Below, piece by piece: positions 43,606 to 60,957 of a stretch of 64,000 nucleotides of DNA (the first letter of the stretch is position 1; each line of letters starts with the position of its first letter). Source of the stretch: a virus. Lineage: Duplodnaviria; Caudoviricetes. The stretch lies in IMG/VR virus record IMGVR_UViG_3300042268_000564, one strand, 5' to 3'. Made by a program: the position numbers and the translations under genes. The notes beneath the pieces are model-generated. The model saw only the letters and a list, made by a program, of their open reading frames with translations, was not told the DNA's origin and searched no databases.

Positions 43606-43611
43606 AATAGA

Positions 43612-43676
43612 ACAGGCTGTTTTTACGTATAAGAGTATGAATCTTACTTGTTTTTGTTTTGCTGTAAACAGCCTTT
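43612..43676 (-). ncRNA. CAGCAA-module RNA, type A1: encloses a lone anticodon stem-loop (CAU)
   Basis: AAAGGCTG-TTTACAGCAA...TAAGA-TTCATAC-TCTTA...CAGCCTG. Confidence 0.75.
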
Positions 43677-43683
43677 ATTACGG

Positions 43684-43756
43684 CAGATGTGAAAGGGCTT
43701 GAACCTTTAACTTCTGGTTTTGGAGACCAGCACTCTTCCAATTGAGCTACACATCT
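43684..43756 (-). tRNA. tRNA-Trp(CCA)
   Basis: CTGGT-CTCCAAA-ACCAG; G discriminator. Confidence 0.92.
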
Positions 43757-43797
43757 ATTTATATCTATTATTTTATCTTTATGACGAAAATTGTCAA

Positions 43798-44103
43798 TTA
43801 ATTTTTAGAAAAAGTTCCAGAGGCATTTATATCACTTTCAGCTTGAACAGTTGTTGATGCTGGCGGGTCGGACAAATCAAGAATCGGTCGGATTGTTGCT
43901 CTTCCTTTAAAAGTCCGTCTAAAATCCTCGCCGGATAATTGATAAGACCATTCCCCCGTGCAATTGTCTCTTGATATAGAATAGCCACGAAACACCTTAA
44001 CTTGTCCATCTATGTGATACATGGTAAGCTCATGTTTTTGCTCTCTGCATCCACAATTGATTGTCATTAATAGGACAGCAGCAATAATTAAAGCATGTCG
44101 CAT
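43798..44103 (-). CDS. Small secreted or lipoprotein-like protein
   Basis: Hydrophobic N-terminus followed by NCGC. Confidence 0.55.
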   Translation of the reverse strand: MRHALIIAAVLLMTINCGCREQKHELTMYHIDGQVKVFRGYSISRDNCTGEWSYQLSGEDFRRTFKGRATIRPILDLSDPPASTTVQAESDINASGTFSKN

Positions 44104-44792
44104 ACTTTATTTGCCTCCACTTCATTTACCTTGTTAGGGTTTTCTCTAATAAATGGCGTGTCATCCACTTCGTCTGTAAAACCATATTTCTCATTTTTAA
44201 GCTCTCTCGCTGCTTGAAGCAAAACATTCTCAAAATATACTAATTCAGTAAGAGTTGCCGATGAATGATACCGACTTAACCCCTCTTTCACGTCTTTAAT
44301 GAATTTGTATATTAAGTCTGCGGTTTCGTTCTGGAAATCCTCATTTAATTGCATTGAAAGCATAAATTTGTTCATGCCACCTGCCAAAGCGCAAGATGTT
44401 GACCGCCATTTCTGTATATCAATTTGAATCAGCAGGTAATGGCATAAAAGAGTATTCGCCATAATAAACATTTTGTCGAATATCGCTATTTTTGAACTAT
44501 CACCAGCCCACGAATCAACAGCTTGAGCTTCTTCCATAATAGAACGAAACATAAACCTATAAGCAGCAATAAACTCGCCTAGCATTGTTGGTTTACCTTC
44601 GTCTTGGAGTAACAAAGTTGTGCCTGATTCTCTATGTAAGAGGTGGGCAGTCTCGCAACGATTACATTTTTTTATGATTAGCTGGTCACGCTCTTTATAG
44701 TTGCATAAGGACAGAAGGTTTATTTGTTGGGTATCATACTTGTGTCCAAAGGTGGCACACATTGTCTTTTTGATTGAATCAAATATGCTCAT
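44088..44792 (-). CDS. Hypothetical protein
   Basis: Translationally coupled ORF; N-terminal C..FGH...CNRC. Confidence 0.65.
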   Translation of the reverse strand: MSIFDSIKKTMCATFGHKYDTQQINLLSLCNYKERDQLIIKKCNRCETAHLLHRESGTTLLLQDEGKPTMLGEFIAAYRFMFRSIMEEAQAVDSWAGDSSKIAIFDKMFIMANTLLCHYLLIQIDIQKWRSTSCALAGGMNKFMLSMQLNEDFQNETADLIYKFIKDVKEGLSRYHSSATLTELVYFENVLLQAARELKNEKYGFTDEVDDTPFIRENPNKVNEVEANKVCDML

Positions 44793-45700
44793 TCAAACAT
44801 GTCCATTTCTGTAGTCGGCTTTTTATAGGATATCATCTTTCGTTCAGTTAACTTGTCTGAATCCTGTAAGCAGCCCAACAACATTGTCGAATTCCATTGA
44901 TGTTTTTGTAATTGTAAATCAGCTCTTTGTGCATAACAATAAACACAGCCATGCTTGCAAGAACTGTAAGCCCCAATATCAACTGATGTGACACAGCCAC
45001 ATTCCTGCCTCTGTCCTTTATCTTTGTTCAAAGTTAATGGTTGCCCTATAACCTTGGATATTAGTTCGTTGTCGATACATTTCCCGTGTTTTATCCCAAA
45101 TCGTGACAAATCCATTGTTTCGCTACAAGTTTCCAATTCAATCTCATAAGTCTCAGCAATTTTCGCAAAAGCTCCGCAGAGCATTTCTATTTGGTTCAAA
45201 GTTGGTGGCACAACATCTTGTATCTTCTTGTATTCGTCATAAAAGCTTATCACGCACTTTTGGGTTGCACCTGCCATTGATTTTGCAAGAAGCTCAAACT
45301 CGAAAATATGCTCCTTGACAGTATAAACACTTGTCAATAATATTGGGTCATAACGCCATATAATTTTGTCGCTGCCAATCTTAGTTGCCAATTCATGAGC
45401 GGCACAAACTGTGTAAATCATATCTGGAACATTTTTTTCAAGCTTGTAAGAATAAGGCGTTATTGTGAGTTGAAAATAATAATTGTAGTCCTTTAACAGG
45501 TCTAACTTGTTTTTCATGGGTTCCGGATTTTTTGTCCAGAAAACAATGCAGTCTACTACATCAGGTGTTAATTTGACTCTGGACACTTGCTTCGGCGACA
45601 TGGGATTTCTTACGTCACAAAAACCAGCTTTTAATCTGTTAAAGAACCAATCAGAATAAAAAGCAGGGATGTCGGTACGTCGACTCGCACTTATAATCAT
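44789..45700 (-). CDS. DUF1848 family protein (radical-SAM/SPL-related, Fe-S)
   Basis: MIISASRRTDIPAFY, VFWTKNP, IWRYDP, CGC...DIGAY..CKHGCVYCYA. Confidence 0.88.
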   Translation of the reverse strand: MIISASRRTDIPAFYSDWFFNRLKAGFCDVRNPMSPKQVSRVKLTPDVVDCIVFWTKNPEPMKNKLDLLKDYNYYFQLTITPYSYKLEKNVPDMIYTVCAAHELATKIGSDKIIWRYDPILLTSVYTVKEHIFEFELLAKSMAGATQKCVISFYDEYKKIQDVVPPTLNQIEMLCGAFAKIAETYEIELETCSETMDLSRFGIKHGKCIDNELISKVIGQPLTLNKDKGQRQECGCVTSVDIGAYSSCKHGCVYCYAQRADLQLQKHQWNSTMLLGCLQDSDKLTERKMISYKKPTTEMDMFE

Positions 45701-45709
45701 GTTACATCC

Positions 45710-46009
45710 TCATTCAGGCATATCTTGTTCTTGCAAGAATACAACAGCCTCTCTCATGAATTTTACGCCAACTATTCCAGCGCAGTTAGGATTATTATAT
45801 TCCTTTGTGAGCCGATAAAATTCTTTTCCTGCTTCAATCCTTAATCGTGTTCTTTCAGCGTCCCAGTCGAGAACCAACTTTGAAGCATCTTCTTTTCTCA
45901 TGTTTGTGTCTAATATCCGAGTGCAAATTGTATCCAATTTTGTTTCATGGTTAGCACAGACATCAAGTAACTCAGAAAGCTTCTTCGTATCTTTTTTCAT
46001 GGCTGGCAT
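45710..46009 (-). CDS. Hypothetical protein
   Basis: Promoter 46035-46062 (TTGACA-N16-TATAAT). Confidence 0.65.
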   Translation of the reverse strand: MPAMKKDTKKLSELLDVCANHETKLDTICTRILDTNMRKEDASKLVLDWDAERTRLRIEAGKEFYRLTKEYNNPNCAGIVGVKFMREAVVFLQEQDMPE

Positions 46010-46065
46010 TTCCCTCGCTTGTTAAGCTGCTATTATTATAACGACGACGCTGGCATTGTCAAGCA

Positions 46066-46093
46066 AAAAGCCCCTGAGAAATCAGGGGCTTTT
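46066..46093 (-). terminator. Intrinsic terminator
   Basis: aaaagcccctga-gaaa-tcaggggctttt. Confidence 0.8.
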
Positions 46094-46108
46094 CCAAAGG
46101 ATAAAGCT

Positions 46109-48370
46109 TTACAGATATTCAGTAACGGTTTTTGCCTTTACAAGCAGGGTCTTGTCTGCCTGAGTATAAACATAGTTACCTTTATCGTCGGCTTCGGTAA
46201 GTTCTTCAAACCAGTCACCTGTGAGCATCTTGGCAATCTTAACGCCACCTAACCAGTAACGGTTCTGACGCAGTCTCGCACGAACTTCTTTAAGTTCGGT
46301 TTCAAGCACTGGTTTCAGTTCTCTTGTAAGATTGTTAAGGTCTTGTCCTGCTTTTGCTACTTTGTCAGCAAGGATAGCTTTTGCGTCAATCATGATTTGC
46401 TGGCTGATAGTAGGTGTTTTACCGCTGGCAATTCTTGCTTCAACATCTTTTACTGATGGTAGAGAGGAAACACCTTTGAATATGAATGACAGGCTTCTTG
46501 TTTCGTAAGAATCAGAATTGGCAGCAGATGTCATGGTATTGTTGATACCTTTATAGACACCTGTCTTGTCAACGCCGTGGTCTTCAAGAACCTGAATCTG
46601 TTCAGGAGTGTATGATTTGAACACACCTGCTTCCTCTTTAAGCTCGGGAAAGGCAGCGTCGACAGCCTTGACATAGTGTCCAATCCACTTCTGGACTGCT
46701 TGGTCAACAATCATATCATTGCACAGGCTGAACACTTTACTCATGTCAGCACCTTTACTGAGGTAAGTGCGATTGATAATTGGAAGCTTGTCAAGCTCAA
46801 TGATTGCGACTACGGGGTTACTCATGCCTGCCTTTTTAAGGCTTGCCAGAGTAGCTTTGTCGGCTTTAAGGCTTGTCATTGTAGTTCCAGCCTTTTTAAG
46901 CGATTTGAAGGCTGCGTCAGACATAGCTACAACCATTTTTTTAATGTTCAAGGTGCCGTCTTTGATAACGGTGTGGGCGCGATAAACAAAGCTGTCGAAG
47001 GATTCAGCCAAGCCCACTCTTTGAGCTGCCTTATGATTGAGCTTCACTGTGCCGTAAGCTTTAAACCTGATAGACACATTCATTCTGTCTTCCGAGAAAA
47101 TAAAGTCTTCGAAAGATGCCATTACAAGGTCTTTCTTGTAAGAGAAGGCATTTTCAGCATCTTCAACCTTGCGTCGAGTGCGCTGGTACTTCTCTGCTTC
47201 TTTGTGCATTGGCAGGTAGTAAGCGTTGTCCTCGGCAAGGGCAAGAATAACATCCATTACACAATGAGCATTATGCTTTGGCAAGTAATTGGCAGGACAT
47301 TTGCCGTCTGCATAACGAGTGGTGGTGTCATGCAGTGCCTGTTCAAGTTGATTGATGTAATTTGCCGCTTCATCAAAGGTGAAAACCGACATTTGCGTAT
47401 CAGCCAGAGCTTTGTCACGGATATTTTTGGCAACAACGTCCAAGCATTTCTGACGCTTGCCGAGATAAAACATATTGTAAGCATAAGCATACAGGAATGT
47501 TTCTTTTGTCAGGTCAGGAATCGCATCAGTGATGTTTTTTGTGTTGGTTTTTACACCATCAACATCAACATCAAAGTCGTCCTTGCCGAGAACAAAAATT
47601 GTGCTGGCAGTTTTGCCCATTCGTGTAAGTGCCAGTTCATTTTCAGCCAGCTTGGTAAATCCAGTGGTAAGGTAAACAATTTCACCCTGAGCTTTTACAT
47701 TGATGGGTTCAGCAACGGTACCAGAAAGAACTTCGTAGTTTTTCACAAAGATATCTTTGTAATTATCTACTGCGGTAGAGTGAACAAAAACACCATATTC
47801 TGTTACGCTTGCCATTCTCTGGAGTAGATTCTGATTGTAGCCACAACCATAACCCACAGTGTTTACTGCAACGATTTTTTCTTTGAGCTGGTCTAAGCAA
47901 TCAAAGATTTTTCTTTCTTCTTCGGCAAGGCTCCAAGGCACAACAGGCTGCCCGTCAGTGAAAAATGTAACAGAAATATTAGGACAGAGGTCATAAAGTT
48001 CTGTGACAATCAGATTGATTTCTTTGATTGGGTCAGAGAAACAGGTCGTGCCGAGAGTATGTCTGAGTGAATCCAGAAGCTTGAGCAAGTTATCTGATTT
48101 TTTTGTCCCTTTAACAAGGGTGCGATATTCGCCGGGACTTGAGAACCAGATAATAGAGATAAGGTCATTGTCGTCCACTTCTTTGATAGTGGCTTGCACA
48201 TTATCAATTAATGTGTCGATTTCCCAAGTCATAGAACCTGAACGGTCAAGAACGTGGATGTGATGAAACTGTTTTTGTTCTACTTTGTCAGTTTCAACAG
48301 GGGTGATTGCCACCAGTGTTTTTTTACTGGTGCCAACGGTTACGGTTGATTTGCTTAACGTAACGTCCAT
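46109..48370 (-). CDS. vWA domain-containing protein
   Basis: VLDRSGSM MIDAS, FFTDG, TVGYG. Confidence 0.85.
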   Translation of the reverse strand: MDVTLSKSTVTVGTSKKTLVAITPVETDKVEQKQFHHIHVLDRSGSMTWEIDTLIDNVQATIKEVDDNDLISIIWFSSPGEYRTLVKGTKKSDNLLKLLDSLRHTLGTTCFSDPIKEINLIVTELYDLCPNISVTFFTDGQPVVPWSLAEEERKIFDCLDQLKEKIVAVNTVGYGCGYNQNLLQRMASVTEYGVFVHSTAVDNYKDIFVKNYEVLSGTVAEPINVKAQGEIVYLTTGFTKLAENELALTRMGKTASTIFVLGKDDFDVDVDGVKTNTKNITDAIPDLTKETFLYAYAYNMFYLGKRQKCLDVVAKNIRDKALADTQMSVFTFDEAANYINQLEQALHDTTTRYADGKCPANYLPKHNAHCVMDVILALAEDNAYYLPMHKEAEKYQRTRRKVEDAENAFSYKKDLVMASFEDFIFSEDRMNVSIRFKAYGTVKLNHKAAQRVGLAESFDSFVYRAHTVIKDGTLNIKKMVVAMSDAAFKSLKKAGTTMTSLKADKATLASLKKAGMSNPVVAIIELDKLPIINRTYLSKGADMSKVFSLCNDMIVDQAVQKWIGHYVKAVDAAFPELKEEAGVFKSYTPEQIQVLEDHGVDKTGVYKGINNTMTSAANSDSYETRSLSFIFKGVSSLPSVKDVEARIASGKTPTISQQIMIDAKAILADKVAKAGQDLNNLTRELKPVLETELKEVRARLRQNRYWLGGVKIAKMLTGDWFEELTEADDKGNYVYTQADKTLLVKAKTVTEYL

Positions 48371-48561
48371 AAAGCGAGGTTCTCCTTTTTTTACAATCTC
48401 TGTTTACTATTATAAACGTTTTTAAAAATTGTCAAGTAAAAAAAGAAAAACATCAATCTCAGCCTTTATTAGAAAGTATTTAATAGGAGCCTATTCGGTG
48501 CTTAAACTTGTCGCAGGGTATTAAGTTTTTAAAAGGCTGACGATGACTAAGGAGGAAAATT

Positions 48562-50361
48562 ATGTCACGTATTCATGGAACTAGAGCGATTATCGCCCAA
48601 ACGATTTCTAATGCAGCTATTGCGAATGATGCCGCTATTGCTGATATCAAGCTCGGCACTATCGCAACTGCAAACAAAGTTAACGTTTCTGCCATTTTTG
48701 GCGTTCTTTCTGCTGAAAAAGGTGGTACTGGTGTTAACAACGGTTCTAACACTATTACCCTTGGTGGTAATGTAAGTCTTGCTGGTGCTTTCTCAACCAC
48801 TGGTGCTTTCTCAACCACATTGAATCAGACAGCTAACGTTGTATTGAATTTGCCTTCAATTAACGGCACGCTTGCTACTGAAGAATATGTTGATGCTTTG
48901 GCACAATCTCTTGACCCAAAAGCTTCTGTAAGAGTTGCTACACAGGCTGCACTTCCTGCTGTTACTTATAACAACGGGGCTGCTGGCGTAGGTGCCACCC
49001 TTACTGCTGATGCTGTTGGTGCGCTTCCTGTTATCGACGATATCACTCTTGTAGCTGGCGACAGAATTTTGGTTAAAAATCAAGCCGATGCTACTCAGAA
49101 TGGTATCTATGTTGTAACTGTAGCTGGCGACGCTGGCACAGCTTTTGTTCTTACTCGTGGTACTGATTGTGATGGTTCACCAGCTAACGAAGTCTCTGGC
49201 GGCATGTTCACATTCGTAGAACAGGGAACTGTCTCTGGTGGGCACGGTTATGTACTTATTTTCGACGGCAACGCAGTTATTGGAACTGACGTTCTTAATT
49301 TCACACAGTTCTCTGGTGCAGGTCAATTGATTGGCGGAGATGGCATTTCTATTGACGGCAACACAGTAAATATCGACGCATCTTATTGGGATGATATTCA
49401 GCAAATCAACACATGGAATGTGGCTGGTGTTACAGGTATGGTTCAAGCCGACCTTCAAAAACTTGCCGATATGGACGTCACTGCCGCTGAACTGAACGAG
49501 CTTAATGGTGCCGGTTGCACAAACGCTGACTTTGTAAAACTTCACAATATCACAGTTTCTGCGGTGCAGCTTTCAGACGTTGCGACTCTTACCAGACTTG
49601 CCTCTACCACTAATGGTGATGGCGCAAGCTTGATTGGCGTTGAAGCAATCGCCGGACTTACTGCGACTACAGTTCAAGCCGCTCTCGCAGAATTGCTGGG
49701 CAATGACAATAACAACTCTGCCAATCTTACGGCTCTTGATGCGGCAGTAAATGGAAGAATTGACAGCATCGACGTTGCACTTGGAATTCCGGGTGATGTT
49801 TATGTTACTGGCACTGGCTCACTTCTTAATGTGGCCACATCTTTCATGGACGCCGACGAAATCCTTGAAGCCAAAGCTGTTAGCTTGCAGGGTGAATTGG
49901 ACGCAACTCAGGCTGGCGCAGGACTCAATCCTGATGGCGCTTATACTCCTAATGCTACCGCTAACTATATCTCAACCGCACAGTCTCTTAAAGATGCTGA
50001 CAACAAGCTCGACCTTGCTATCGAATCCGAAGAAGTTGCGAGAATCGCGGCTGTAGCTGATGAAGCCGCTGCAAGAACTGCTGCTGACGACGCTCTTAGT
50101 GGCAGACTTGATGCTGTTGAGGGTGGCGCACTTGGCATCGTTGACTATGACTTCCTCGGTAATGGTGATGGTTCACAAGTTCTGTATACAGTAAGCGCTG
50201 CTGCTTACCTTGCAGGCACTTTGAAGGTGTATATCAACGGTCTTCTCATGAAAAAAGGCACTGCTGCTGGCGAAGTTCAGGAAACTGACCCTGCAACAGG
50301 AACTTTCACTTTCGGGACTGCACCTGCGATTGATGATGAAATCATCGTTGCTCACCGCTAA
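48562..50361 (+). CDS. Probable virion structural (decoration/fibre) protein
   Basis: AAGGAGG RBS; ATEEYVD...KASVRVAT...DRILVKNQ...NGIY; C-terminal LKVYINGL. Confidence 0.75.
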   Translation: MSRIHGTRAIIAQTISNAAIANDAAIADIKLGTIATANKVNVSAIFGVLSAEKGGTGVNNGSNTITLGGNVSLAGAFSTTGAFSTTLNQTANVVLNLPSINGTLATEEYVDALAQSLDPKASVRVATQAALPAVTYNNGAAGVGATLTADAVGALPVIDDITLVAGDRILVKNQADATQNGIYVVTVAGDAGTAFVLTRGTDCDGSPANEVSGGMFTFVEQGTVSGGHGYVLIFDGNAVIGTDVLNFTQFSGAGQLIGGDGISIDGNTVNIDASYWDDIQQINTWNVAGVTGMVQADLQKLADMDVTAAELNELNGAGCTNADFVKLHNITVSAVQLSDVATLTRLASTTNGDGASLIGVEAIAGLTATTVQAALAELLGNDNNNSANLTALDAAVNGRIDSIDVALGIPGDVYVTGTGSLLNVATSFMDADEILEAKAVSLQGELDATQAGAGLNPDGAYTPNATANYISTAQSLKDADNKLDLAIESEEVARIAAVADEAAARTAADDALSGRLDAVEGGALGIVDYDFLGNGDGSQVLYTVSAAAYLAGTLKVYINGLLMKKGTAAGEVQETDPATGTFTFGTAPAIDDEIIVAHR

Positions 50362-50404
50362 CGACGGTTGCTAACGAATTAATTCGTTAGCCTATGAACA
50401 TGAT

Positions 50405-50437
50405 GGGAGGAGGAAACCCCTCCTCCCTATTTTTTTA
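50405..50437 (+). terminator. Intrinsic terminator
   Basis: gggaggagg...cctcctccc-tattttttt. Confidence 0.75.
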
Positions 50438-50466
50438 TAAAATAACCAAACAGGAGTATATTTTTA

Positions 50467-51498: not shown

Positions 51499-51534
51499 TT
51501 CCTTGTCCCTATCTCCTGACAAAGGATTGTAATT

Positions 51535-52170: not shown

Positions 52171-52181
52171 GGAGGTAGGGT

Positions 52182-53012: not shown

Positions 53013-53024
53013 TGGAGGCAACAA

Positions 53025-53383: not shown

Positions 53384-53407
53384 AAAGTGGTTATTACAGG
53401 GCTTATT

Positions 53408-53830: not shown

Positions 53831-53847
53831 GACACCATCTCAACTTA

Positions 53848-54246
53848 TTACAGGATATCGTCGTCGTTACGTTGTCTGCGAACAGGTTCTGTCGACTGCT
53901 GTGTGGCGGAATGTGTTTTATTTAAAGCATTTTGTATGGATTTTGTCTCATTGGCTGAAACATTCGTCTGTGGTGTAGCCTCTGCAAGGTCTTTGTTCAT
54001 TGCATTTCTAATCAAAGAAAGCCGGGTAAGGGCATAATTTTCTTTCAAAGTCTCGATTTGCAAAATCAAAAGATTCAACGCTGTTTCATTATAAGTAATG
54101 TCAGTCATTGTCCGCATGTTGGCGTCTTTTATAAGCTTGATTTTATAAATTTTTTCTTCGAAATCAGCTTCTGCTGGTGGTTGGACTGGCGCAGAGCTAG
54201 GTGTGGCAGGTGGTGTATTTTTTTTGACAGGTGATTTTTTAACCAT
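53848..54246 (-). CDS. Hypothetical protein
   Basis: GGAG RBS. Confidence 0.6.
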   Translation of the reverse strand: MVKKSPVKKNTPPATPSSAPVQPPAEADFEEKIYKIKLIKDANMRTMTDITYNETALNLLILQIETLKENYALTRLSLIRNAMNKDLAEATPQTNVSANETKSIQNALNKTHSATQQSTEPVRRQRNDDDIL

Positions 54247-54346
54247 AAAACAAATCTCTCCAAACTAAATTTTTACTTGTATATATTATACTTTCAAACT
54301 AGCTTACAAAAACGCCAACAGAAAAATCGCATGATGGCTGTTATTA

Positions 54347-54727
54347 TTAATCTTTATCAGACGTTAAAAAACTGTCTATCTGAGCTTTGACAAGCTTATA
54401 TTGTTCATGAAAATATCTTGCATCTTCTTTGTTCATGATATGGCAAGACATGAACATGGGATAACCATTAAATCCCATTGTGCCAGCTTTATCCATATAT
54501 TCATACACCATCGCTGTGTCTGGCGGTAACGGTTCCTCCATCAATGCAAGCACCATAAAAATATTCGGCAAAAGATGTAGGTCGTGTTCGGGGATATGAC
54601 CAGAAGTAAAAATTTTGTTTTGATAGCAATCCATTGCCAATTGCTTTAATTCTTGGTCGGTCATTTTTCTGACACTTCTATCTTTATCAATAGCGATGTC
54701 GGGCATATTCTCAGGCTTGATTGTCAT
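54347..54727 (-). CDS. Hypothetical protein
   Basis: ORF in a minus-strand run. Confidence 0.65.
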   Translation of the reverse strand: MTIKPENMPDIAIDKDRSVRKMTDQELKQLAMDCYQNKIFTSGHIPEHDLHLLPNIFMVLALMEEPLPPDTAMVYEYMDKAGTMGFNGYPMFMSCHIMNKEDARYFHEQYKLVKAQIDSFLTSDKD

Positions 54728-54765
54728 TTTTTTATTAGTTCCTTTTGGATAAAAGTTAGTGAACG

Positions 54766-55170
54766 TCAACCGAACAGCCATTTAAACGCAGCAAACATCA
54801 AAAGCAAGTGCATGGTGTTGTCTGAAACTACATAAACAATTGGTGAAAACATTTTTCTTATTTCTCTGGTTTGGTAATTCTCTATTTTAAATACATCTAC
54901 TGGTGGTGTACTACCAATCATTTTCATCCATTTATTGGCAAGCCCATATCTATCAATAGGGTAGTGGCTCAAAAACGCAATAACAAATATTTGCCAAGAC
55001 AAAATCCCTATACAAGACATAGTGACAGTCATTGTCAAAGCATAAACAATACAATGAATGAGGCACGCCCATAGTCCTGTCCATGTTTTTTGTTGTTTAT
55101 TTGTTGCCATCCAGTCGGTTTGGAACAAATAGTCGCCAATGAAATGCCCAAAGAAAATAGCTTCAAACAT
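54766..55170 (-). CDS. DUF3307 membrane protein
   Basis: HFIGDYLFQTDWMA..K, H...Y, HYPID, DNTMH. Confidence 0.8.
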   Translation of the reverse strand: MFEAIFFGHFIGDYLFQTDWMATNKQQKTWTGLWACLIHCIVYALTMTVTMSCIGILSWQIFVIAFLSHYPIDRYGLANKWMKMIGSTPPVDVFKIENYQTREIRKMFSPIVYVVSDNTMHLLLMFAAFKWLFG

Positions 55171-56053
55171 TGGATTCTTTTTTCCTTTCAATCATTTCAA
55201 CAAGAGGTTCAAACAGGGCTTTTGTTCCACCTTTATTATTAAAATTGTCTAAATATCGTTTAGCTCTCGCAGTCATTTTTGCCGCATATTTTGTTTCAAT
55301 TTGTTCTTTTATTTCCATGTAAGAGCTGTGCTTGTATTGATGCTCAGGGTCTTTTCTTTTATTCTCTCGAAACAACCTGTCCACAATTTTTTCACTTGTG
55401 TAAACTAAGGTATATTTGTGAATTTTTTCGGCTGAAAAAAAATATTCCAATTTGCCAATCAAAGCTTCAAGCCAATCAACGTCCCATCTTGCAATTCCTC
55501 TGGTAAGACGGTCAATACCTTCTGCGACAATACAAAACATTTCATTACTCGGAACGCCACTATCGTCCAATAGGACGTGAGACCAATCTTTTTTTCTTTG
55601 TTCCCATTCTTCCTCGGTAGCGGTTTCGTCAGGGTCAGTGTTGTCCCAATAACCGTATGGAATAGCAATACCTGAGTCCATGAACAATTTCCTTGTCATG
55701 GAGCCGCCAAATAAAAGCCCTAACAGGTTTCCATCAGGTGCAGAGCTAACACCAAGTGCAATTTCGTTTTCTCTTACGAAATTTCGTCTATTTCTTTCCC
55801 CTGCCAAGCTGTATCTGTCTTTCTCATTATCAAAGATTTCATTCATTATGATATTATTTATCATTTTAAGAGAGTTATCAAATGATTCGTTTTTGAAAAC
55901 ATAATGTCTTACAAGGTCATAACCGCCAGTGAGCAGTAATTCAGCCAGAACGTCATGAAAAATACCTCCAGCGGCACATTTCTTGAATACAGCTTTTATT
56001 TCAGCAAGAGAATTCGTGGTGAATTTTACACCGTCATATATCTTTATGCTCAT
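55163..56053 (-). CDS. Hypothetical protein
   Basis: 296-aa ORF; YGYWDNTDPD...EW..R...W. Confidence 0.7.
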   Translation of the reverse strand: MSIKIYDGVKFTTNSLAEIKAVFKKCAAGGIFHDVLAELLLTGGYDLVRHYVFKNESFDNSLKMINNIIMNEIFDNEKDRYSLAGERNRRNFVRENEIALGVSSAPDGNLLGLLFGGSMTRKLFMDSGIAIPYGYWDNTDPDETATEEEWEQRKKDWSHVLLDDSGVPSNEMFCIVAEGIDRLTRGIARWDVDWLEALIGKLEYFFSAEKIHKYTLVYTSEKIVDRLFRENKRKDPEHQYKHSSYMEIKEQIETKYAAKMTARAKRYLDNFNNKGGTKALFEPLVEMIERKKESNV

Positions 56054-56240
56054 TCTTAGCCAGCCTTTCTAAACGTTTTTTATATTCAGCTTTCCACTTT
56101 ACAATCGTGGAAATGGAAACATGATGCCTTGCCGCCAAAACAGGATTTGTCAAGTCAGGGTATTTCTCAAAACTCGCCATTACATCCCTTTTCTTTGCGT
56201 CTTTGTGTTTGATATTTCTACGTCCCATTCCAAAAGTCAT
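56034..56240 (-). CDS. Small HTH protein
   Basis: LAARHHVSISTIVKW. Confidence 0.55.
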   Translation of the reverse strand: MTFGMGRRNIKHKDAKKRDVMASFEKYPDLTNPVLAARHHVSISTIVKWKAEYKKRLERLAKNEHKDI

Positions 56241-56353
56241 CGAGAGTATCCTTTCGTTGCAAGTGAATTAATTGCCTCTGGAGCAAACATTCCAGTCCAG
56301 TTTATTATTTTTATATATTCTATTATATGCCCAAGTTAAAAGTTAAATAATGT

Positions 56354-56410
56354 CAAATATACAAAACAGGTGAAAGAATGTTTTGTTCTTTCACCTGTTT
56401 TGTATATTTG
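56354..56410. repeat. 25-bp perfect inverted repeat
   Basis: caaatatacaaaacaggtgaaagaa-N7-ttctttcacctgttttgtatatttg. Confidence 0.85.
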
Positions 56411-56430
56411 CTTATTTATTGATTGGCAAA

Positions 56431-57345
56431 TTAAGAGGTTTTATAAGCCAAAAAGCCGCTAGTGTAATTGAAGCCTGTTATGTAAATTGCATCGCCATAC
56501 ATATTAACACTCGCTGCCATTCCTCGACCATATGGCAGTGATGCATAGCTAGTATTGCCAGTCGCAACATCTATAAAATATAAAAAGTTGTCGTAACTCA
56601 CAACATATATAGTATTGCCATCAGCAGACAATTTAACATCTGTTGGTTTTTCAGGATAGAATGGCTGTGTAAGATTTGTTCCATCTACATTCATCGAATA
56701 AAAGCCGTCCAAATAGGCAGCCATATAAATTTTGTCATTAACGATTTCTAATCCCAAAATATCCTTGGTCGAATTTAAGTGCTCAATTAATGTCATATTA
56801 GCATCAAGTTTATCTATCCCAAACCCATAGCGGCTCGCAAAATAAATATTATTATTAGAGTCCTCTGCGAAAGCAACGCCATGAAAGTTACTTCCAGTAT
56901 GAGTATAATGGTTCACATAGTTTCCAGATAAATCATGTTTAACGATAGTGAATTCATCATAAGCGTGCAACATATGCTGATTATCTTTCATGAAATAAAT
57001 CTTCGAATCATGCATATAAACTTCTTCTTCGTTCCTTGTATAATTAGGGATGTCGTCAGAATATTTAATAAGATGTCCTGCGGCGTCGAAAATCTTAATA
57101 TTAGCTTGAGACTGTAGAGTTAAATATAAATATTGTTCGTCAGGTGTCACAAAAATGCCGCATGGCAGACTATTTCCACCCAAATCAGGGAAAATACTTG
57201 TAGACTCACCACCCGTGACAGTTGACGCTACACTCCCGTCTGGCAAAACAATAGTCGGGGAAAAATTAACACTAGGGTCGTAGACATAAATATATTCATT
57301 ATCGTCATGAATTAATCGACCATCCACAGTAACTAGGTATGCCAT
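56431..57345 (-). CDS. Beta-propeller (YVTN/NHL-like) protein
   Basis: PCGIFVTPD..YLY, PTDVKLSADG.TIYV. Confidence 0.65.
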   Translation of the reverse strand: MAYLVTVDGRLIHDDNEYIYVYDPSVNFSPTIVLPDGSVASTVTGGESTSIFPDLGGNSLPCGIFVTPDEQYLYLTLQSQANIKIFDAAGHLIKYSDDIPNYTRNEEEVYMHDSKIYFMKDNQHMLHAYDEFTIVKHDLSGNYVNHYTHTGSNFHGVAFAEDSNNNIYFASRYGFGIDKLDANMTLIEHLNSTKDILGLEIVNDKIYMAAYLDGFYSMNVDGTNLTQPFYPEKPTDVKLSADGNTIYVVSYDNFLYFIDVATGNTSYASLPYGRGMAASVNMYGDAIYITGFNYTSGFLAYKTS

Positions 57346-57391
57346 AAGCTTTACTCCTTTTCGTTCTACTTCTAATACTTTAAAGTAAGGA

Positions 57392-57934
57392 TTAAAGCAA
57401 TATTAATGATTTGTGTGGTTTAATTGCGTCATCTGGCCATTTTTTGTAGGAAGCTATCTTTCTCATAGCTCTTTTTCTGGCATCTTCCACAGAGTCCCCC
57501 TCTGCCCAAACAATGTCGTGAATGCCTTCGTCTCGCAAGTCAGCTTCTTCTGATGTTATAAGGTGAGGCTGCGTCCTTTTGCCATCGGCACGGCATTCTA
57601 GGCTTTTTACAACAAATGACACCTCGCCCGTTTCAAGCCAAAACCCCACGTTATATTTTGTAATAGCTCTTAAATCGCTCGTTGTTTCTACAATGTTTCT
57701 TTCAACAATACAAAATTCTTGCTTAAGATATTCACGATAAGGTGGGAGCGTTCCCAACATACACTCATTTTCTGCGCCTCGCCATCTCTCTTGAGATTCC
57801 CGTTTATCCAAATATTCTTGCCTGCCGAGCATGAACATTGCCTTCCTTGCAAGTTTTTTGTCGAAAAAAATTCCTGTAATAATGGCTTCGCCGCCAAGAC
57901 TGCAATCAGAATGCAAAAAGTATGCTTTAATCAA
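57392..57934 (-). CDS. Hypothetical protein
   Basis: GGAG plus a TTG start overlapping the upstream TGA. Confidence 0.55.
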   Translation of the reverse strand: MIKAYFLHSDCSLGGEAIITGIFFDKKLARKAMFMLGRQEYLDKRESQERWRGAENECMLGTLPPYREYLKQEFCIVERNIVETTSDLRAITKYNVGFWLETGEVSFVVKSLECRADGKRTQPHLITSEEADLRDEGIHDIVWAEGDSVEDARKRAMRKIASYKKWPDDAIKPHKSLILL

Positions 57935-58986
57935 GAGTTTTCTCCTTCGTTTTCTGTTATAAAAGTCCCAACCCCGTCTAATGTAAATGATGTGCCCCAC
58001 ACTCGCCATCGCCAAGTGTTTAAATCGTAGTCTTTTAAGCAATCTACTTTCTCTTGAAAAGGAATCAAGAATGGTATCTTGGAATCAATATCGTTACTTG
58101 GACAAGGAAGTAATACAGATGTTTTTGAATCTGACTTAAATATGTTTGCAAACATCGCTGTATAGATGTCTATGTTAGGCTTCTTCTTGTCACCATAACA
58201 AATTATGTTGTTTGGGTTGCTGCAATCATAACGTCTAATGACTCCACTTTTGTCAGCAGCCAAAAAATTAGTTTCATTCAGTTTACAAGCCACCAATCTA
58301 AAATCTGGATATTTGTCCTTCAGTTTTGCAATGGTCTTTATAGCTTTTGGGGGTGGGGTGAACCCCGTCAGTTCTTTCTTTTGCGTGAATTTAATTTGGT
58401 TAAAATACATCTTTAACCAGTTCATTAGCTTTGAAGGAAACTCTCTTTCAATAGAGCGATGGTGTTCTAATGTAAGCTTAAAGGGATATCCATCTTTTGG
58501 ACGACAATCACAATGTCCGTCCCAGAAGTTAAAAACAAAGTTTATATTGGCTTGATTGACATTTTCAACCGTAGATTCTTGAGAGGCAAGAAATTTTTTC
58601 TTTTTTATGAATGACCGTGCCTTTGGATTTTTCCGCCAATCTTTAAATGTAGTGTTATCTGGAATGACATCTGGCTCCTTAGCAAATAATAGATAGGCAT
58701 CAAACTTATCTGCATTGTTTTTGATGTAATCGTGATAGTCAAACAAGGTTTCACAGTATTTAACTTTGTTGCAACACATCATAATATCTCTTGCATCTTT
58801 TTCTCGTTCGGGTTTTACAATATGAACATCGAAATGACGTTGGAGTGTATAAATGAGGTCTTCAAAGATACGAGACCTGTCTGTCAGGTCGGGACACCCT
58901 ATGCTGACAAATACCTTTTCAATAATAGCTTTTGCAGAAAAATGCCCATAAGACACTAATATTGATTTACGAGTCGTTTTTTTCAT
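57931..58986 (-). CDS. Hypothetical protein
   Basis: Promoter 58993-59020; near-leaderless. Confidence 0.7.
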   Translation of the reverse strand: MKKTTRKSILVSYGHFSAKAIIEKVFVSIGCPDLTDRSRIFEDLIYTLQRHFDVHIVKPEREKDARDIMMCCNKVKYCETLFDYHDYIKNNADKFDAYLLFAKEPDVIPDNTTFKDWRKNPKARSFIKKKKFLASQESTVENVNQANINFVFNFWDGHCDCRPKDGYPFKLTLEHHRSIEREFPSKLMNWLKMYFNQIKFTQKKELTGFTPPPKAIKTIAKLKDKYPDFRLVACKLNETNFLAADKSGVIRRYDCSNPNNIICYGDKKKPNIDIYTAMFANIFKSDSKTSVLLPCPSNDIDSKIPFLIPFQEKVDCLKDYDLNTWRWRVWGTSFTLDGVGTFITENEGENS

Positions 58987-59016
58987 GTCTTTATTATAAA
59001 AAGAGCGAGCTGGATG

Positions 59017-59418
59017 TCAACTTTTTATTTTGGGCAGAATGTTATTTTCCAGTGTTCTAATAATAGAATGTAATTCAGTTATTATTTCTCTGTCGGATTT
59101 ATATAGCTCAGGGTTCCTTGCGAACCATACCAATTTGTAAAACAAAATCTCGCAACATTCATGAAAAGCTGTGCGCTCAATCTCGAATAAAGATGTCTCA
59201 GGATGATAAAGCCATTCGTCGTTAATGCAAAGGCGAACCTGTTGTGCACCACAATCTATGTCATGTGGAATAGTTTTGGCACGAAATTGTCCATCTGCCC
59301 AATCCACCACCACGACGATGATTTGCCAGTGATTAAGGTTCAATAAGTCCTTATATCTGTTAACACAATTACGGAAATGAGAAAGATTGGCTGGTATTGG
59401 TTTCATTTGTTCATCCAT
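59017..59418 (-). CDS. Zincin-like hypothetical protein
   Basis: AFHECCE...ELH. Confidence 0.55.
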   Translation of the reverse strand: MDEQMKPIPANLSHFRNCVNRYKDLLNLNHWQIIVVVVDWADGQFRAKTIPHDIDCGAQQVRLCINDEWLYHPETSLFEIERTAFHECCEILFYKLVWFARNPELYKSDREIITELHSIIRTLENNILPKIKS

Positions 59419-59435
59419 GCCTTTATATTACTCTA

Positions 59436-59472
59436 AAAAACAAATAAGCCCGTAGCTTTTGGGCTACAGGCT
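59436..59472 (-). terminator. Probable terminator of the RNA cluster
   Basis: AGCCTGTAGC...GCTACGGGCT then TATTTGTTTTTT. Confidence 0.6.
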
Positions 59473-59509
59473 CACTTGTATATCAATTTGCCTAATAGAG
59501 CTTAATAAA

Positions 59510-59582
59510 ACAGATTGTTGTTTTAACAAAGATTAACAGTCTTTTGCTCATTTGAGCGGTTGTGTTGCTGTAAACAATCTTT
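59510..59582 (-). ncRNA. CAGCAA-module RNA, type A2: encloses a mini D-stem and an anticodon stem-loop (GUU)
   Basis: AAAGATTG-TTTACAGCAAC...GCTC-AAAT-GAGC-A-AAAGA-CTGTTAA-TCTTT...CAATCTG. Confidence 0.75.
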
Positions 59583-59598
59583 ATTTAAAAAGCATCAG

Positions 59599-59735
59599 GG
59601 CAGGAAGTAGGACTCGAACCTACACGTCTTGCGACACCAGTCCCGTTGTTAAGTAGTTTGAGTTGCTGTATGTAACCTTTGTCAGGTTAACCTTTACTTT
59701 TTTACTGGTGCGTCTGCCAATTCCGCCATTCCCGC
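59599..59735 (-). ncRNA. tRNA-like RNA, type B1: Leu-type body with the anticodon loop replaced by a ~62-nt CAGCAA module
   Basis: GCGGGAA/TTCCTGC acceptor, Leu D-arm, ACCAGT/ACTGGT stem, long variable arm, GGTTCGAGTCC; insert TAACCTGACAAAGGTTACATACAGCAAC. Confidence 0.85.
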
Positions 59736-59739
59736 CAAA

Positions 59740-60306
59740 TTATCTTTTGCCACTCCTATCTTTAATCAGGTCAATAAGAGCCTGCACTTTCTCAATTGTC
59801 AAAAAGCCATCGAAATCAAAGTTGTGAACAACGATACAGTTTGTTATATTTTTTTCATCGTTCGGGTCATAGGTAGAAATAGTAACCATTTCATTAAAGT
59901 CACCAATATTTCCAGCCTGTAGTAACCTGCGTCTACCCAAGCGATAAAAAATTTGATGTCCAATGGTGAAATGAGGTATTTCTTCAAAACCAAGTGCTAT
60001 TAGGTCAGCATTTTTAAGTGGTGTCCCTCTGTATTCCGGCTTATCTTTATCTGCAAGCAGATTGATAAAAGCATTTATCTTTTCTTCCGTTAAAGCACCC
60101 TCAAACAGATGGTCGTGAAGAGAAATTATGTCGGTTATTTCTTTTCCATCATTGTCGTCAATCATAAGCGATTCACTGGTTGTTCCAACGCCAGCAACAC
60201 TTAACGCTCGTCCACGACTCAAAGGATAAAAGAAATTGCCACCAATAGAATATTGAGGACGTCTTTTAAATCCAAGTTCCAACAAGTCTTCAGTTGTAAG
60301 TGTCAT
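59740..60306 (-). CDS. Hypothetical protein made of two tandem ~90-aa domains
   Basis: Twice L...DL..LGF...P...IG...FY.L.R.R.L...G.LT.EK..A.I.L. Confidence 0.75.
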   Translation of the reverse strand: MTLTTEDLLELGFKRRPQYSIGGNFFYPLSRGRALSVAGVGTTSESLMIDDNDGKEITDIISLHDHLFEGALTEEKINAFINLLADKDKPEYRGTPLKNADLIALGFEEIPHFTIGHQIFYRLGRRRLLQAGNIGDFNEMVTISTYDPNDEKNITNCIVVHNFDFDGFLTIEKVQALIDLIKDRSGKR

Positions 60307-60361
60307 TTTTTACCATTCCTTAACTAAGCTTGTTGTTATTATAACCAAAAAGAACAAGTTG

Positions 60362-60586
60362 TCAACTTGTTCTTTTTGATTTCGGTACAATTGGAAGCTT
60401 TTCATGCTTAGCAAAATGTCGTTTTAGAAAGGTAAGCATCTTCTCACCATTCTCAGTTAAGACAAAACCTGTTCCATTGCATTTTCCACACTCATAGTTC
60501 TGATTGCATGAACATTCTTCATCAAGCTTTACAATGGTATTAGCGTTGATGTCTTTCTTGCACTTAAGAACTATTTTTTCTTGCAT
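60362..60586 (-). CDS. Small zinc-finger protein
   Basis: CSC...CGKCNGTG; start trimmed to exclude the RNA genes. Confidence 0.6.
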   Translation of the reverse strand: MQEKIVLKCKKDINANTIVKLDEECSCNQNYECGKCNGTGFVLTENGEKMLTFLKRHFAKHEKLPIVPKSKRTS

Positions 60587-60611
60587 GAAAATTCCCTTCT
60601 GGAAAGAACAG

Positions 60612-60730
60612 GGCGGGGGATAGGACTTGAACCTATGACCTAAAGCTTGTATTTTTTTGGGTTGCTGCATGTAACCTTTTGTCAGGTTAACTTTTAATGG
60701 CTCTCGCTCTACCAACTGAGCTACCCCCGC
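60612..60730 (-). ncRNA. tRNA-like RNA, type B2: class I body with the anticodon loop replaced by the CAGCAA module
   Basis: GCGGGGG/CCCCCGC, GCTCAGTTGGTAGAGC, AGAGC/GCTTT, AGGTC, GGTTCAAGTCC; insert TAACCTGACAAAAGGTTACATGCAGCAAC. Confidence 0.85.
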
Positions 60731-60741
60731 AATTTTATAAA

Positions 60742-60802
60742 ACAGGCTGTCAATTTTAACAATTTCAAGTTGTTTGTTGTTGAGTTGCTGAAAACAGCCT
60801 TT
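60742..60802 (-). ncRNA. CAGCAA-module RNA, type A3: encloses a lone anticodon stem-loop (UGA)
   Basis: AAAGGCTG-TTTTCAGCAAC...AACAA-CTTGAAA-TTGTT...CAGCCTG. Confidence 0.75.
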
Positions 60803-60810
60803 ATTCTCGG

Positions 60811-60909
60811 TGGGGCAGATTGGATTTGAACCAATAATTCTTTGTGTTGCAGTATCAAACCTTATCAGGCTTGCTCGCCCTCTACCAATGTGAGCGATAT
60901 ACCTGCCCC
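60811..60909 (-). ncRNA. tRNA-like RNA, type B3: divergent body with a module variant in place of the anticodon arm
   Basis: GGGGCAG/CTGCCCC, ATTGG-TTCAAAT-CCAAT; insert AAGCCTGATAAGGTTTGATACTGCAAC. Confidence 0.75.
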
Positions 60910-60925
60910 ATATTCGGTGCCGGAA

Positions 60926-60957
<32 letters not shown>

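What the first reader, a model, noticed from the sequence alone, without database searches (positions are those of the whole stretch)
43612..60909. Reciprocal tRNA-mimic RNA system: one module joined either to a bare anticodon arm or to an anticodon-less tRNA body
Seen: six minus-strand elements inside the tRNA clusters share a 6-bp helix followed by NNT(A/T/G)C(A/T)GCAA. The helix covaries: AGGCTG/CAGCCT (43612, 60742), AGATTG/CAATCT (59510), AGGTTA/TAACCT (59599, 60612) and AGGTTT/AAGCCT (60811). The CCT/TCT strand is always followed by G. In type A the helix closes the RNA and encloses an anticodon stem-loop. In type B the same module is circularly permuted (strands joined by a short loop) and sits where a tRNA's anticodon loop should be. 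Established: bacterial YrlA Y RNAs join a Ro60-binding stem to a tRNA-like domain at the anticodon position, and hosts use anticodon nucleases against phages. Inference: the module is a protein-binding handle that displays either half of a tRNA. Possible roles are decoy or bait for anticodon nucleases or sensors, scaffold for a Ro/TROVE-like or RNA-repair protein, or substrate for piecewise tRNA assembly. I do not recognise a described family with both forms.
Basis: partly seen in the sequence, partly recalled or inferred. Interest (0 to 1): 0.95.

Follow-up and report, generated by a model that had tools for sequence, protein, structure and literature searches.

The report
Handle-tagged tRNA mimics of phage Ro60-like protein
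Six small RNAs in this giant phage's tRNA clusters share a conserved "handle" attached to pieces of tRNA. They are probably partner RNAs of a Ro60-like ring protein the phage also encodes, a widespread pairing I found described in no paper or Rfam family.

Summary
All six minus-strand elements exist. The motif occurs 7 times in the window against 0.14 expected, and the helix covaries.

The window belongs to a 394-kb phage. The shared module is a 6-7 bp helix (AGGWUNN/NNAWCCU) followed by G, with UNCAGCAA next to the 5' strand. It belongs to a large family found in many phage tRNA clusters.

The handle either closes an RNA or is grafted into a tRNA. When it closes an RNA, the cargo is an anticodon stem-loop, a partial tRNA, a whole tRNA or a circularly permuted tRNA.

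The decisive link is genetic. The phage encodes a DUF2828/DUF7788 protein whose model folds like Ro60 (a TROVE ring plus a vWA domain). In 55 of 70 independently chosen phage loci, handle RNAs lie just upstream of this gene on the same strand. Controls gave 3/70 and 0/70.

So these are most likely Y-RNA-like partners of a Ro60 paralogue that display tRNA parts. The handle is not the canonical Ro60 site. It closely resembles the orphan Class I RNAs of Dictyostelium.

Binding and function are inferred, not shown. This scan has already met the same family in more than 100 other genomes.

The parts
43611..43677 (-). A1: handle-closed RNA. It has helix 43668-43674 / 43614-43620, G at 43613, motif UUACAGCAA at 43659-43667, and an anticodon stem-loop mimic (CAU loop UUCAUAC) at 43630-43646.
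   Evidence: Model R1 scores it 56.5 bits; it is a training row. It lies in an operon: promoter 43797-43770, tRNA-Trp, A1, tRNA-Gly, tRNA-Thr, terminator 43411-43384.
60741..60803 (-). A2: handle-closed RNA. It has helix 60794-60800 / 60744-60750, motif UUUCAGCAA at 60785-60793, and a stem-loop mimic with loop CUUGAAA (UGA) at 60758-60774.
   Evidence: R1 scores it 55.4 bits (training row). It gives a weak end-to-end hit to Rfam Dicty_Class_I_RNA (17.6 bits).
59509..59583 (-). A3: handle-closed RNA. It has helix 59574-59580 / 59512-59518, motif UUACAGCAA at 59565-59573, an extra hairpin at 59546-59557, and a stem-loop mimic with loop CUGUUAA (GUU) at 59528-59544. The operon terminator follows at 59479-59440.
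   Evidence: R1 scores it 31 bits, E 3e-5, and it was not in the training set.
59599..59735 (-). B1: a class II (Leu-like) tRNA body with acceptor, D, anticodon-stem, long variable and T arms. Its anticodon loop is replaced by an A-rich linker, the handle hairpin (UUAACCU-G-ACAA-AGGUUA, 59673-59690), CAUACAGCAA (59663-59672) and an A/C-rich linker.
   Evidence: Rfam tRNA 34.1 bits with a 62-nt insert.
60612..60730 (-). B2: a class I tRNA body whose anticodon loop is replaced by a linker, the handle hairpin (60672-60690), CAUGCAGCAA (60662-60671) and a linker.
   Evidence: Rfam tRNA 53.6 bits with a 52-nt insert. R1 gives a partial hit at 60607-60680 (22.7 bits).
60811..60909 (-). B3: a tRNA-like body with acceptor 60903-60909 / 60812-60818, an extended D-like arm and a T arm at 60819-60835. 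The handle hairpin AAGCCU-G-AUA-AGGUUU (60857-60872) plus GAUACUGCAA (60847-60856) replaces the whole anticodon arm.
   Evidence: The fold has z = -3.8.

Best explanation
The six elements belong to a widespread family of phage (and some bacterial) small RNAs built from one conserved handle and a variable tRNA-derived cargo.

The handle is a 6-7 bp helix (5'-AGGWUNN / NNAWCCU-3'). Its 3' strand is followed by G(UU). The single-stranded motif UNCAGCAA sits next to its 5' strand.

Most likely (inferred), the handle is the binding site of the phage's Ro60-like ring protein. That protein is a DUF2828 TROVE-like domain plus a DUF7788 vWA/MIDAS domain, 524 aa, encoded 180 kb away at G000:307342-308916. 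The RNAs would then be Y-RNA analogues.

In type A the handle closes the RNA and presents an anticodon stem-loop. In type B the same handle, capped by a short loop, is grafted into a tRNA body that keeps normal tRNA ends.

The RNAs are co-transcribed with tRNAs and presumably released by the same processing. By analogy with Ro60-Y RNA particles, the RNP would tether the ring to factors that recognise particular parts of tRNA. Those factors could be tRNA enzymes, repair enzymes or host tRNA nucleases. Alternatively it would present those parts as baits during infection.

Shown: the family, the helix covariation, the Ro60 fold of the protein, and the gene-RNA linkage.

Inferred: binding itself, processing, and the physiological role.
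For: 1. Family. The same handle recurs in dozens of unrelated IMG/VR contigs inside tRNA clusters. Its consensus was computed from 84 copies.

2. Protein. The ORF matches Pfam DUF2828 (1.4e-27) and DUF7788 (3e-34). The AF2 model has pLDDT 85.6. The 13 best PDB matches are all Ro60/TROVE over the full length (E down to 1.8e-9, TM about 0.55), and vWA/MIDAS domains follow. An invariant DxSxS is present.

3. Linkage.
- In a tblastn of all own-genome ORFs against loci fetched only by RNA pattern, this ORF hit 20 loci, 19 of them handle-positive. The RNAs lie 30-130 nt upstream on the same strand.
- In the reverse, protein-anchored test, 55 of 70 loci have at least one paired handle upstream and 44 have at least two. 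Controls gave 3/70 downstream and 0/70 on the opposite strand.
- Independent NCBI/JGI contigs show the same arrangement. So do cultured phages Jubie and wV8 and a Fervidobacterium chromosome.
- The own genome has two further handle RNAs beside the gene.
- Among genomes checked, G000 and G003 have both gene and RNA. G008 has neither. G006 has RNAs 3 kb from a weak DUF2828-like ORF.

4. Y-RNA analogy. Permuted-tRNA members hit Rfam YrlA at 37-41 bits.

5. RNA-repair neighbourhood in relatives. A metallophosphoesterase is present in 19/81 loci and an AAA_33 kinase in 7/81. L239 carries an RNA ligase and an HD/AAA_33 protein.
Against: - No binding or expression data exist.
- The handle lacks the canonical Ro60-binding motif GNCGAAN0-1G and the bulged helix. 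The protein matches DUF2828, not Pfam TROVE.
- 15 of 70 protein-anchored loci had no handle by my strict rule.
- Synteny could also reflect cis-regulation of the gene's mRNA.
- This phage has no recognisable RtcB, RNA ligase or polynucleotide kinase, so the repair link is weak here.
- The six window copies lie 180 kb from the gene.
Confidence: 0.7

Rival explanations
1. The module is a processing or splicing signal that works like the archaeal/eukaryal bulge-helix-bulge motif. When hairpin-capped inside a tRNA it is an intron. When it closes the RNA it flanks a permuted pre-tRNA, which is cut and re-ligated (circularised) and then opened by RNase P/Z. The Ro-like protein could assist.
For: - Relatives include otherwise complete tRNAs interrupted only by the module: L191 tRNA-Glu, and the L283/L288/L309 tRNA-Tyr that carries an encoded CCA.
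- They also include circularly permuted tRNAs with 7-bp acceptor stems capped by 4-5 nt (L177, L203, L225, L127).
- In four independent cases, the 1-2 nt after position 26 complement the last nt of the anticodon-stem 3' strand (my reading).
- End-healing and sealing enzymes neighbour the Ro-like gene in some phages.
Against: - B3 and all stem-loop-only cargos cannot yield a tRNA.
- For B1 and B2, no excision gives a canonical 7-nt loop with U33 (and my inspection).
- The 27:43 complementarity is equally explained by an unspliced three-way junction.
- Junction enumeration with ARAGORN was uninformative.
- This phage has no splicing endonuclease, RtcB or RNA ligase.
- The same module precedes a protein gene.
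- M. smegmatis YrlA shows that permuted tRNA-like Y RNAs exist without splicing.
Confidence: 0.12
2. The handle is mainly a cis-regulatory or operon-punctuation element. It would be an autoregulatory operator in the 5' UTR of the DUF2828 mRNA, or an RNase or terminator signal in tRNA operons, not a stable trans-acting RNA.
For: - Copies sit 30-130 nt before the start codon in most loci.
- In this genome, a related hairpin followed by a T run precedes the RBS.
- The elements are spaced like tRNA genes within operons.
Against: - Most copies in this genome (6 of 8) lie far from the gene, inside tRNA operons.
- Cargo is conserved as tRNA-like structure with canonical anticodon loops.
- In Jubie, wV8 and Fervidobacterium the RNAs lie downstream of the gene.
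- An operator role would still imply binding by the protein.
Confidence: 0.1
3. The elements are decaying tRNA pseudogenes or a miniature mobile repeat with no RNA-level function.
For: The tRNA bodies are clearly derived from neighbouring tRNA genes. There are many copies per cluster.
Against: - Compensatory changes maintain the helix.
- The single-stranded motif and flanks are invariant across phages of unrelated hosts.
- All copies share the strand of the tRNAs and of the gene (0/70 on the opposite strand).
- There are no target duplications or DNA-level inverted ends.
Confidence: 0.03

Closest known systems
Ro60 (Rsr) - Y RNA ribonucleoproteins, especially bacterial and phage YrlA (Rfam RF02553; Chen et al. 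2014, PMC4201824; Thermus phage phiLo Ro60-Yrl, PMC12135203)
   Same: - A ring protein with the Ro60 fold (TROVE-like HEAT ring plus vWA/MIDAS) is encoded next to, and on the same strand as, one to several small RNAs.
- The RNAs have a protein-handle module plus a tRNA-like module.
- Permuted-tRNA members match the YrlA model in the T arm, capped acceptor and D arm (37-41 bits).
- RNA-repair genes are sometimes adjacent.
   Different: - The protein belongs to DUF2828/DUF7788, not Pfam TROVE (14% identity to Ro60 in the structural alignment).
- The handle has no GNCGAAN0-1G or GGUCCGA bulged helix. It is AGGWU.../...AWCCU-G plus UNCAGCAA.
- No member reaches the YrlA gathering score (69 bits).
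- Cargo includes bare anticodon arms with canonical loops. The handle can be grafted inside open-ended tRNAs. Neither is described for Y RNAs.
Dictyostelium Class I RNAs (Rfam RF01414; Kjellin et al. 2021, PMC7919456)
   Same: - A short covarying stem joins the 5' and 3' ends.
- A conserved unpaired motif ...UUACAGCAA lies directly after the 5' stem strand.
- The ends read ..AAG and CUGU.
- Length is about 55-70 nt and the interior is variable.
- The Rfam model aligns end to end with short type-A members (27-33 bits; window A2 17.6 bits).
   Different: - Scores are below the gathering threshold (41.5 bits).
- Class I RNAs are eukaryotic, have a DUSE promoter, and were reported as unique to Dictyostelia.
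- Their known direct binder is the RRM protein Rnp1A. No Ro-like partner or tRNA-like cargo is described.
- Homology versus convergence is untested.
Archaeal/eukaryal tRNA introns and permuted or split tRNA genes (bulge-helix-bulge system)
   Same: One RNA module occurs either inside a tRNA or, split in two, around a circularly permuted tRNA.
   Different: - There is no bulge-helix-bulge geometry.
- The phage has no splicing endonuclease or RtcB.
- Many cargos cannot give a tRNA.
Phage T4 stable RNAs C and D (species 1 and 2) in the tRNA cluster (from my own knowledge, not checked here)
   Same: They are non-tRNA small RNAs co-transcribed with phage tRNAs, of unknown function.
   Different: No sequence comparison was made here, and no Ro-like partner is known.

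Membership tests
Y RNA / YrlA (RF02553) | Encoded close to, and on the same strand as, a Ro60-type gene | tested here: met
   55 of 70 protein-anchored loci have one (controls 3/70 and 0/70). Own genome: two copies beside the gene. The gene is a DUF2828 paralogue, and the six window copies are 180 kb away.
Y RNA / YrlA (RF02553) | Ro60-binding motif GNCGAAN0-1G or the GGUCCGA bulged helix | tested here: not met
   The handle is AGGWUNN-NUNCAGCAA ... NNAWCCU-G. The YrlA alignment matches only the tRNA-like part. The motif definition comes from PMC4201824.
Y RNA / YrlA (RF02553) | Score at or above the Rfam gathering threshold (69 bits) | tested here: not met
   No hit in the window region at E<=10. 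Permuted relatives score 29-41 bits.
Y RNA / YrlA (RF02553) | tRNA-like domain (T arm, D arm, acceptor-like stem) | tested here: met
   B1, B2 and B3 have these arms. Relatives have permuted full tRNAs. A1-A3 carry only an anticodon arm.
Y RNA / YrlA (RF02553) | Physical association with the Ro protein | not testable with these tools
   Needs pull-down, EMSA or CLIP.
Ro60 / TROVE protein family (for the partner protein) | HEAT-repeat ring plus C-terminal vWA domain with a MIDAS motif | tested here: met
   The top 13 Foldseek hits are all Ro60/TROVE over the full length. vWA/MIDAS domains follow. DxSxS is invariant (D295, S297, S299).
Ro60 / TROVE protein family (for the partner protein) | Sequence match to Pfam TROVE (PF05731) or to solved Ro60 chains | tested here: not met
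   Pfam gives only DUF2828 and DUF7788. A profile against PDB sequences gives Ro60 1yvp at E 0.78. phmmer gives none.
Dictyostelium Class I RNA (RF01414) | Six-bp covarying stem joining the 5' and 3' ends | tested here: met
Dictyostelium Class I RNA (RF01414) | Conserved 11-nt motif (..CUUACAGCAA) adjacent to the 5' stem strand, with conserved ends AAG / CUGU | tested here: met
   UNCAGCAA is at least 89% conserved. The flanks are (U/A)(U/A)A-G... and ...CU-GUU. The model alignment is and the paper's text.
Dictyostelium Class I RNA (RF01414) | Score at or above the Rfam gathering threshold (41.5 bits) | tested here: not met
   Window A2 scores 17.6 bits. A1 gives no hit at E<=10. Relatives score 27.5-32.7 bits.
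Bulge-helix-bulge tRNA introns / permuted tRNA genes | Splicing endonuclease and RtcB-type ligase available, and excision restores a canonical tRNA | tested here: not met
   PF01974, PF01139, PF09414 and PF09511 are absent from the phage. No canonical loop is restorable for B1-B3 (and inspection). Host enzymes are unknown.

The most novel reading that the evidence does not exclude
The helix-plus-UNCAGCAA handle is the universal recognition element of the DUF2828 branch of Ro60-like proteins, from phages and bacteria to the so far orphan Class I RNAs of Dictyostelium. In phages the exchangeable tRNA-part cargos work as a programmable set of baits or tethers. Anticodon arms of Lys, Thr, Asn, Tyr, Asp and Met, or anticodon-less bodies, would let the ring capture, neutralise or repair the products of host tRNA-targeting nucleases. 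In a bolder form, the handle would direct cleavage and ligation that matures the interrupted and permuted tRNAs.
Probability: 0.12. Interest if true: 0.9.

Novelty: new variant of a known kind. Interest (0 to 1): 0.72.

Why it matters
If the inference holds, it defines a second, very widespread branch of Ro60/Y-RNA biology. The protein occurs in at least 695 cultured phage genomes, including Felix O1-like phages, cluster L mycobacteriophages, and Listeria, Staphylococcus and Campylobacter phages. It also occurs in at least 585 IMG/VR contigs.

This branch has its own RNA recognition code and a modular way of displaying chosen parts of tRNA.

It would give a function to unannotated "spacers" in phage tRNA clusters. 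It would explain tRNA genes that tRNA finders call as intron-containing or pseudo-tRNAs.

It also gives a concrete, testable hypothesis for the Dictyostelium Class I RNAs, whose mechanism has been open since 2004: look for a DUF2828/Ro-like partner.

Tractable phages (Felix O1, wV8, mycobacteriophage cluster L) make direct tests easy.

Tried and rejected
- Known ribozymes and other Rfam families. cmscan at E<=10 over the region gave only tRNA plus noise.
- Small self-splicing or protein-spliced intron, with trans-splicing of A into B. I enumerated junctions with ARAGORN, but ARAGORN was too permissive to fix any junction. The A and B helices are not cross-complementary, and B1 and B2 already have their own anticodon stems.
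- DNA-level readings (IS200/IS605-like ends, CRISPR-like repeats, retron). Rejected because the pairing partners can be more than 100 nt apart, they covary, and the elements are strand-locked to the tRNAs.
No RNA-seq evidence could be obtained.
- Near-DNA search of phage records gave only tRNA-sized hits.
- My first loose pattern scans of IMG/VR were mostly chance hits and had to be filtered by pairing. The plain partner test has a high background: 167 partners against 72-86 in controls.
- Searches for RtcB, Rnl2-type ligase, Rnl1-type ligase, AAA_33 kinase and splicing endonuclease in the phage were all negative. The PF09511 control rang nowhere, so that negative is uninformative.
- The protein-atlas look-up gave only DUF2828 clusters of bacteria and viruses. 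It could not tell whether Dictyostelium has a homologue.

Full report
**What is there.** The window is G000:C1:63068-127067 of a 393,839-bp IMG/VR phage record. On the minus strand it carries two tRNA operons.

- ARAGORN and Rfam find eight ordinary tRNAs.
- They also find a tRNA-Leu(UAA) split by a group I intron with an HNH ORF.
- Two further tRNA matches carry 52- and 62-nt inserts in the anticodon loop. These are B2 (60612-60730) and B1 (59599-59735).

- In A1 (43611-43677), A2 (60741-60803) and A3 (59509-59583), a 7-bp helix closes the RNA. It encloses UNCAGCAA, an A/C-rich linker, a 5-bp/7-nt anticodon stem-loop (CAU, UGA, GUU) and an A-rich linker.
- In B1, B2 and B3 (60811-60909), the two helix strands are joined by a 3-5 nt loop. 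The resulting hairpin plus motif sits inside a tRNA body. It replaces the anticodon loop in B1 and B2 and the whole anticodon arm in B3.

The 3' helix strand is always followed by G. The motif pattern occurs 7 times in the window against 0.14 expected.

Promoter and terminator scans place A1 in a promoter / tRNA-Trp / A1 / tRNA-Gly / tRNA-Thr / terminator unit. They place B1 and A3 at the end of a unit closed by a strong terminator at 59479-59440. These are consensus matches only.

**It is a family.** Two pattern scans of IMG/VR were filtered for a complementary partner. They yielded dozens of elements in unrelated contigs, nearly all inside tRNA clusters and spaced like tRNA genes.

The consensus from 84 copies is 5'-UUU-AGGWUNN-NUNCAGCAA-(A/C-rich)...(A-rich)-NNAWCCU-GUU.

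On 23 short members the six outer pairs are always paired. Three pairs are invariant (A-U, G-C, U-A) and three covary, far above the shuffled and slid controls. Those rows were selected for pairing.

A covariance model built from them (R1) recovers untrained members:

- A3 in the window;
- two copies next to the Ro-like gene;
- copies in NCBI/JGI contigs;
- copies in phages Jubie and wV8;
- copies in a Fervidobacterium chromosome.

**Cargo is strikingly varied.**

- Bare anticodon arms, most often with Thr-UGU, Lys-UUU, Ser-GGA, Asp-GUC or CAU loops.
- D, anticodon and T arms without an acceptor stem.
- A whole tRNA-Arg whose leader and trailer form the helix.
- Circularly permuted tRNAs: T arm, acceptor 3' strand, 4-5 nt cap, acceptor 5' strand, D arm.

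In the capped-hairpin form, the handle is found at four sites:

- in the anticodon loop (this window);
- between nt 27 and 28 of otherwise complete tRNA-Glu and tRNA-Tyr;
- in place of the D arm;
- in place of the anticodon arm.

**The partner.** I ran a tblastn of every ORF of the phage against the loci fetched purely by RNA pattern. One ORF stood out, hitting 20 loci, 19 of them handle-positive.

- It is a 524-aa protein at G000:307342-308916. It matches Pfam DUF2828 and DUF7788.
- Its AlphaFold model has pLDDT 85.6. The 13 best PDB matches are all Ro60/TROVE over the full length: Xenopus, human, Deinococcus Rsr and Thermus phage phiLo. vWA/MIDAS domains follow.
- A DxSxS MIDAS motif is invariant in the family.

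Directly upstream of the gene lie a consensus promoter, a type-A handle RNA, further structure and the RBS. Another handle RNA lies 1 kb upstream.

I then made the reverse, unbiased test, anchored on the protein rather than the RNA. Of 70 non-redundant IMG/VR loci encoding a relative:

- 55 have at least one paired handle within 650 nt upstream on the same strand;
- 44 have two or more;
- the downstream control gave 3/70 and the opposite-strand control gave 0/70.

Other data agree.

- Contigs chosen by protein from NCBI/JGI show the same arrangement.
- Complete genomes with handle RNAs (G000, G003) have the gene, and G008 has neither.
- The protein occurs in 695 cultured phage records.
- In mycobacteriophage Jubie, three handle RNAs follow the annotated "Ro-like RNA binding protein" gene.
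- In Felix O1-like wV8, four handle RNAs lie in the tRNA cluster after the gene.

**Comparison with the known.** Ro60 with Y RNAs is the obvious frame. Bacterial YrlA joins a Ro60-binding module to a permuted tRNA-like domain and is encoded by rsr (PMC4201824).

The permuted members of this family hit Rfam YrlA at 37-41 bits, below the 69-bit threshold. The match covers only the tRNA-like part. The handle has no GNCGAAN0-1G motif. The protein is a distant paralogue and gives no TROVE Pfam match.

Short type-A members recurrently hit one other Rfam family end to end, the Dictyostelium Class I RNA (27-33 bits; window A2 17.6 bits; gathering 41.5).

- That model's consensus is a 6-bp terminal stem, then CUUACAGCAA, then a variable interior, then the closing stem strand followed by UG.
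- The paper describes ends AAG and CUGU and calls the class unique to Dictyostelia (PMC7919456).
- Whether it reflects homology or convergence is open.

I found no paper describing RNA partners of DUF2828 proteins. Five papers mention DUF2828, none of them relevant. The library is incomplete.

**How it most likely works.**

- Shown: a conserved, covarying handle; tRNA-derived cargo; a Ro60-fold protein; tight gene-RNA synteny.
- Inferred: the protein binds the handle, through sequence-specific contacts to the invariant A-U, G-C and U-A pairs, the 3' G and the UNCAGCAA strand. It would stabilise these RNAs as RNPs.

By analogy with Y RNAs, which act as gates and tethers, the cargo would direct the ring to proteins that recognise a given part of tRNA, or offer that part as a substrate mimic.

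In relatives the gene neighbours a metallophosphoesterase (19/81 loci), an AAA_33 kinase (7/81), and in one contig an RNA ligase plus an HD/AAA_33 protein. This points to RNA-damage or repair biology. This phage itself has no recognisable ligase, kinase or RtcB.

A1 and A3 carry exactly the anticodon loops of the phage's own tRNA-Met and tRNA-Asn, but on AU-rich stems. That fits mimicry of loops rather than decayed gene copies.

**Rivals.** A splicing or permuted-tRNA maturation signal is attractive for the interrupted and permuted complete tRNAs, but several points count against it.

- It cannot apply to B3 or to the stem-loop-only RNAs.
- It restores no canonical loop in B1 or B2.
- It lacks the enzymes in this phage.
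- It is not needed to explain the 27:43 complementarity.

I give it about 0.12. A purely cis-regulatory role gets about 0.1, and pseudogene or repeat decay about 0.03.

It is a new variant of a known kind, a Y-RNA-like RNP of a Ro60 paralogue with its own handle and with modular tRNA-part display.

This scan has already reported the same family in more than 100 other genomes. The find is therefore not new to the scan, although I found no published description.

Noticed in passing
window 60918-61721 (-): tRNA-Leu(UAA) is interrupted at the classic anticodon site by a group I intron (Rfam Intron_gpI, 81.9 bits at 60989-61261). The intron carries an HNH-type ORF.
   Followed up: partly
window 62160-62310 (-): An oversized tRNA-like stretch lies right after tRNA-Leu(CAA). 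It has no CAGCAA handle, no Rfam hit at gathering, and was not found by model R1.
   Followed up: no
window 43384-43411 (-): The terminator hairpin of the first tRNA operon contains CUACAGCAA, spanning its 5' stem strand and loop. This may be chance or a degenerate handle.
   Followed up: no
window 60368-60586 (-): A small ORF between B2 and the next promoter encodes a protein with a CxxCxGxG (DnaJ-type zinc-finger-like) motif.
   Followed up: no
L237:2283-2315 (G000:307282-307314, +): Between the handle RNA and the RBS of the Ro-like gene lies a hairpin AGGUUAGAA-GAAA-UUCUAACCU-G followed by a T run. It has a handle-type helix without the CAGCAA motif and looks like a terminator or attenuator.
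   Followed up: no
L178:1787-2164, L075:1587-1978, L206:7238-7536, L200:11835-12122: Other handle-positive phages carry tmRNA genes near their tRNA clusters. They hit Rfam tmRNA_permuted at 77-143 bits, and the L178 stretch also passes the one-piece beta_tmRNA model.
   Followed up: no
window 58172-58229, 39273-39326, 6405-6453 (-): Model R1 gives weak matches here (E 0.13-0.9).
   Followed up: no
G006:C1:307333-307683 and 310866-311292: A 314-kb phage that I had taken as a handle-negative control has two strong handle RNAs. They lie 3 kb from a 561-aa ORF that matches DUF2828 only weakly (17.9 bits). This may be a more divergent branch of the protein.
   Followed up: partly
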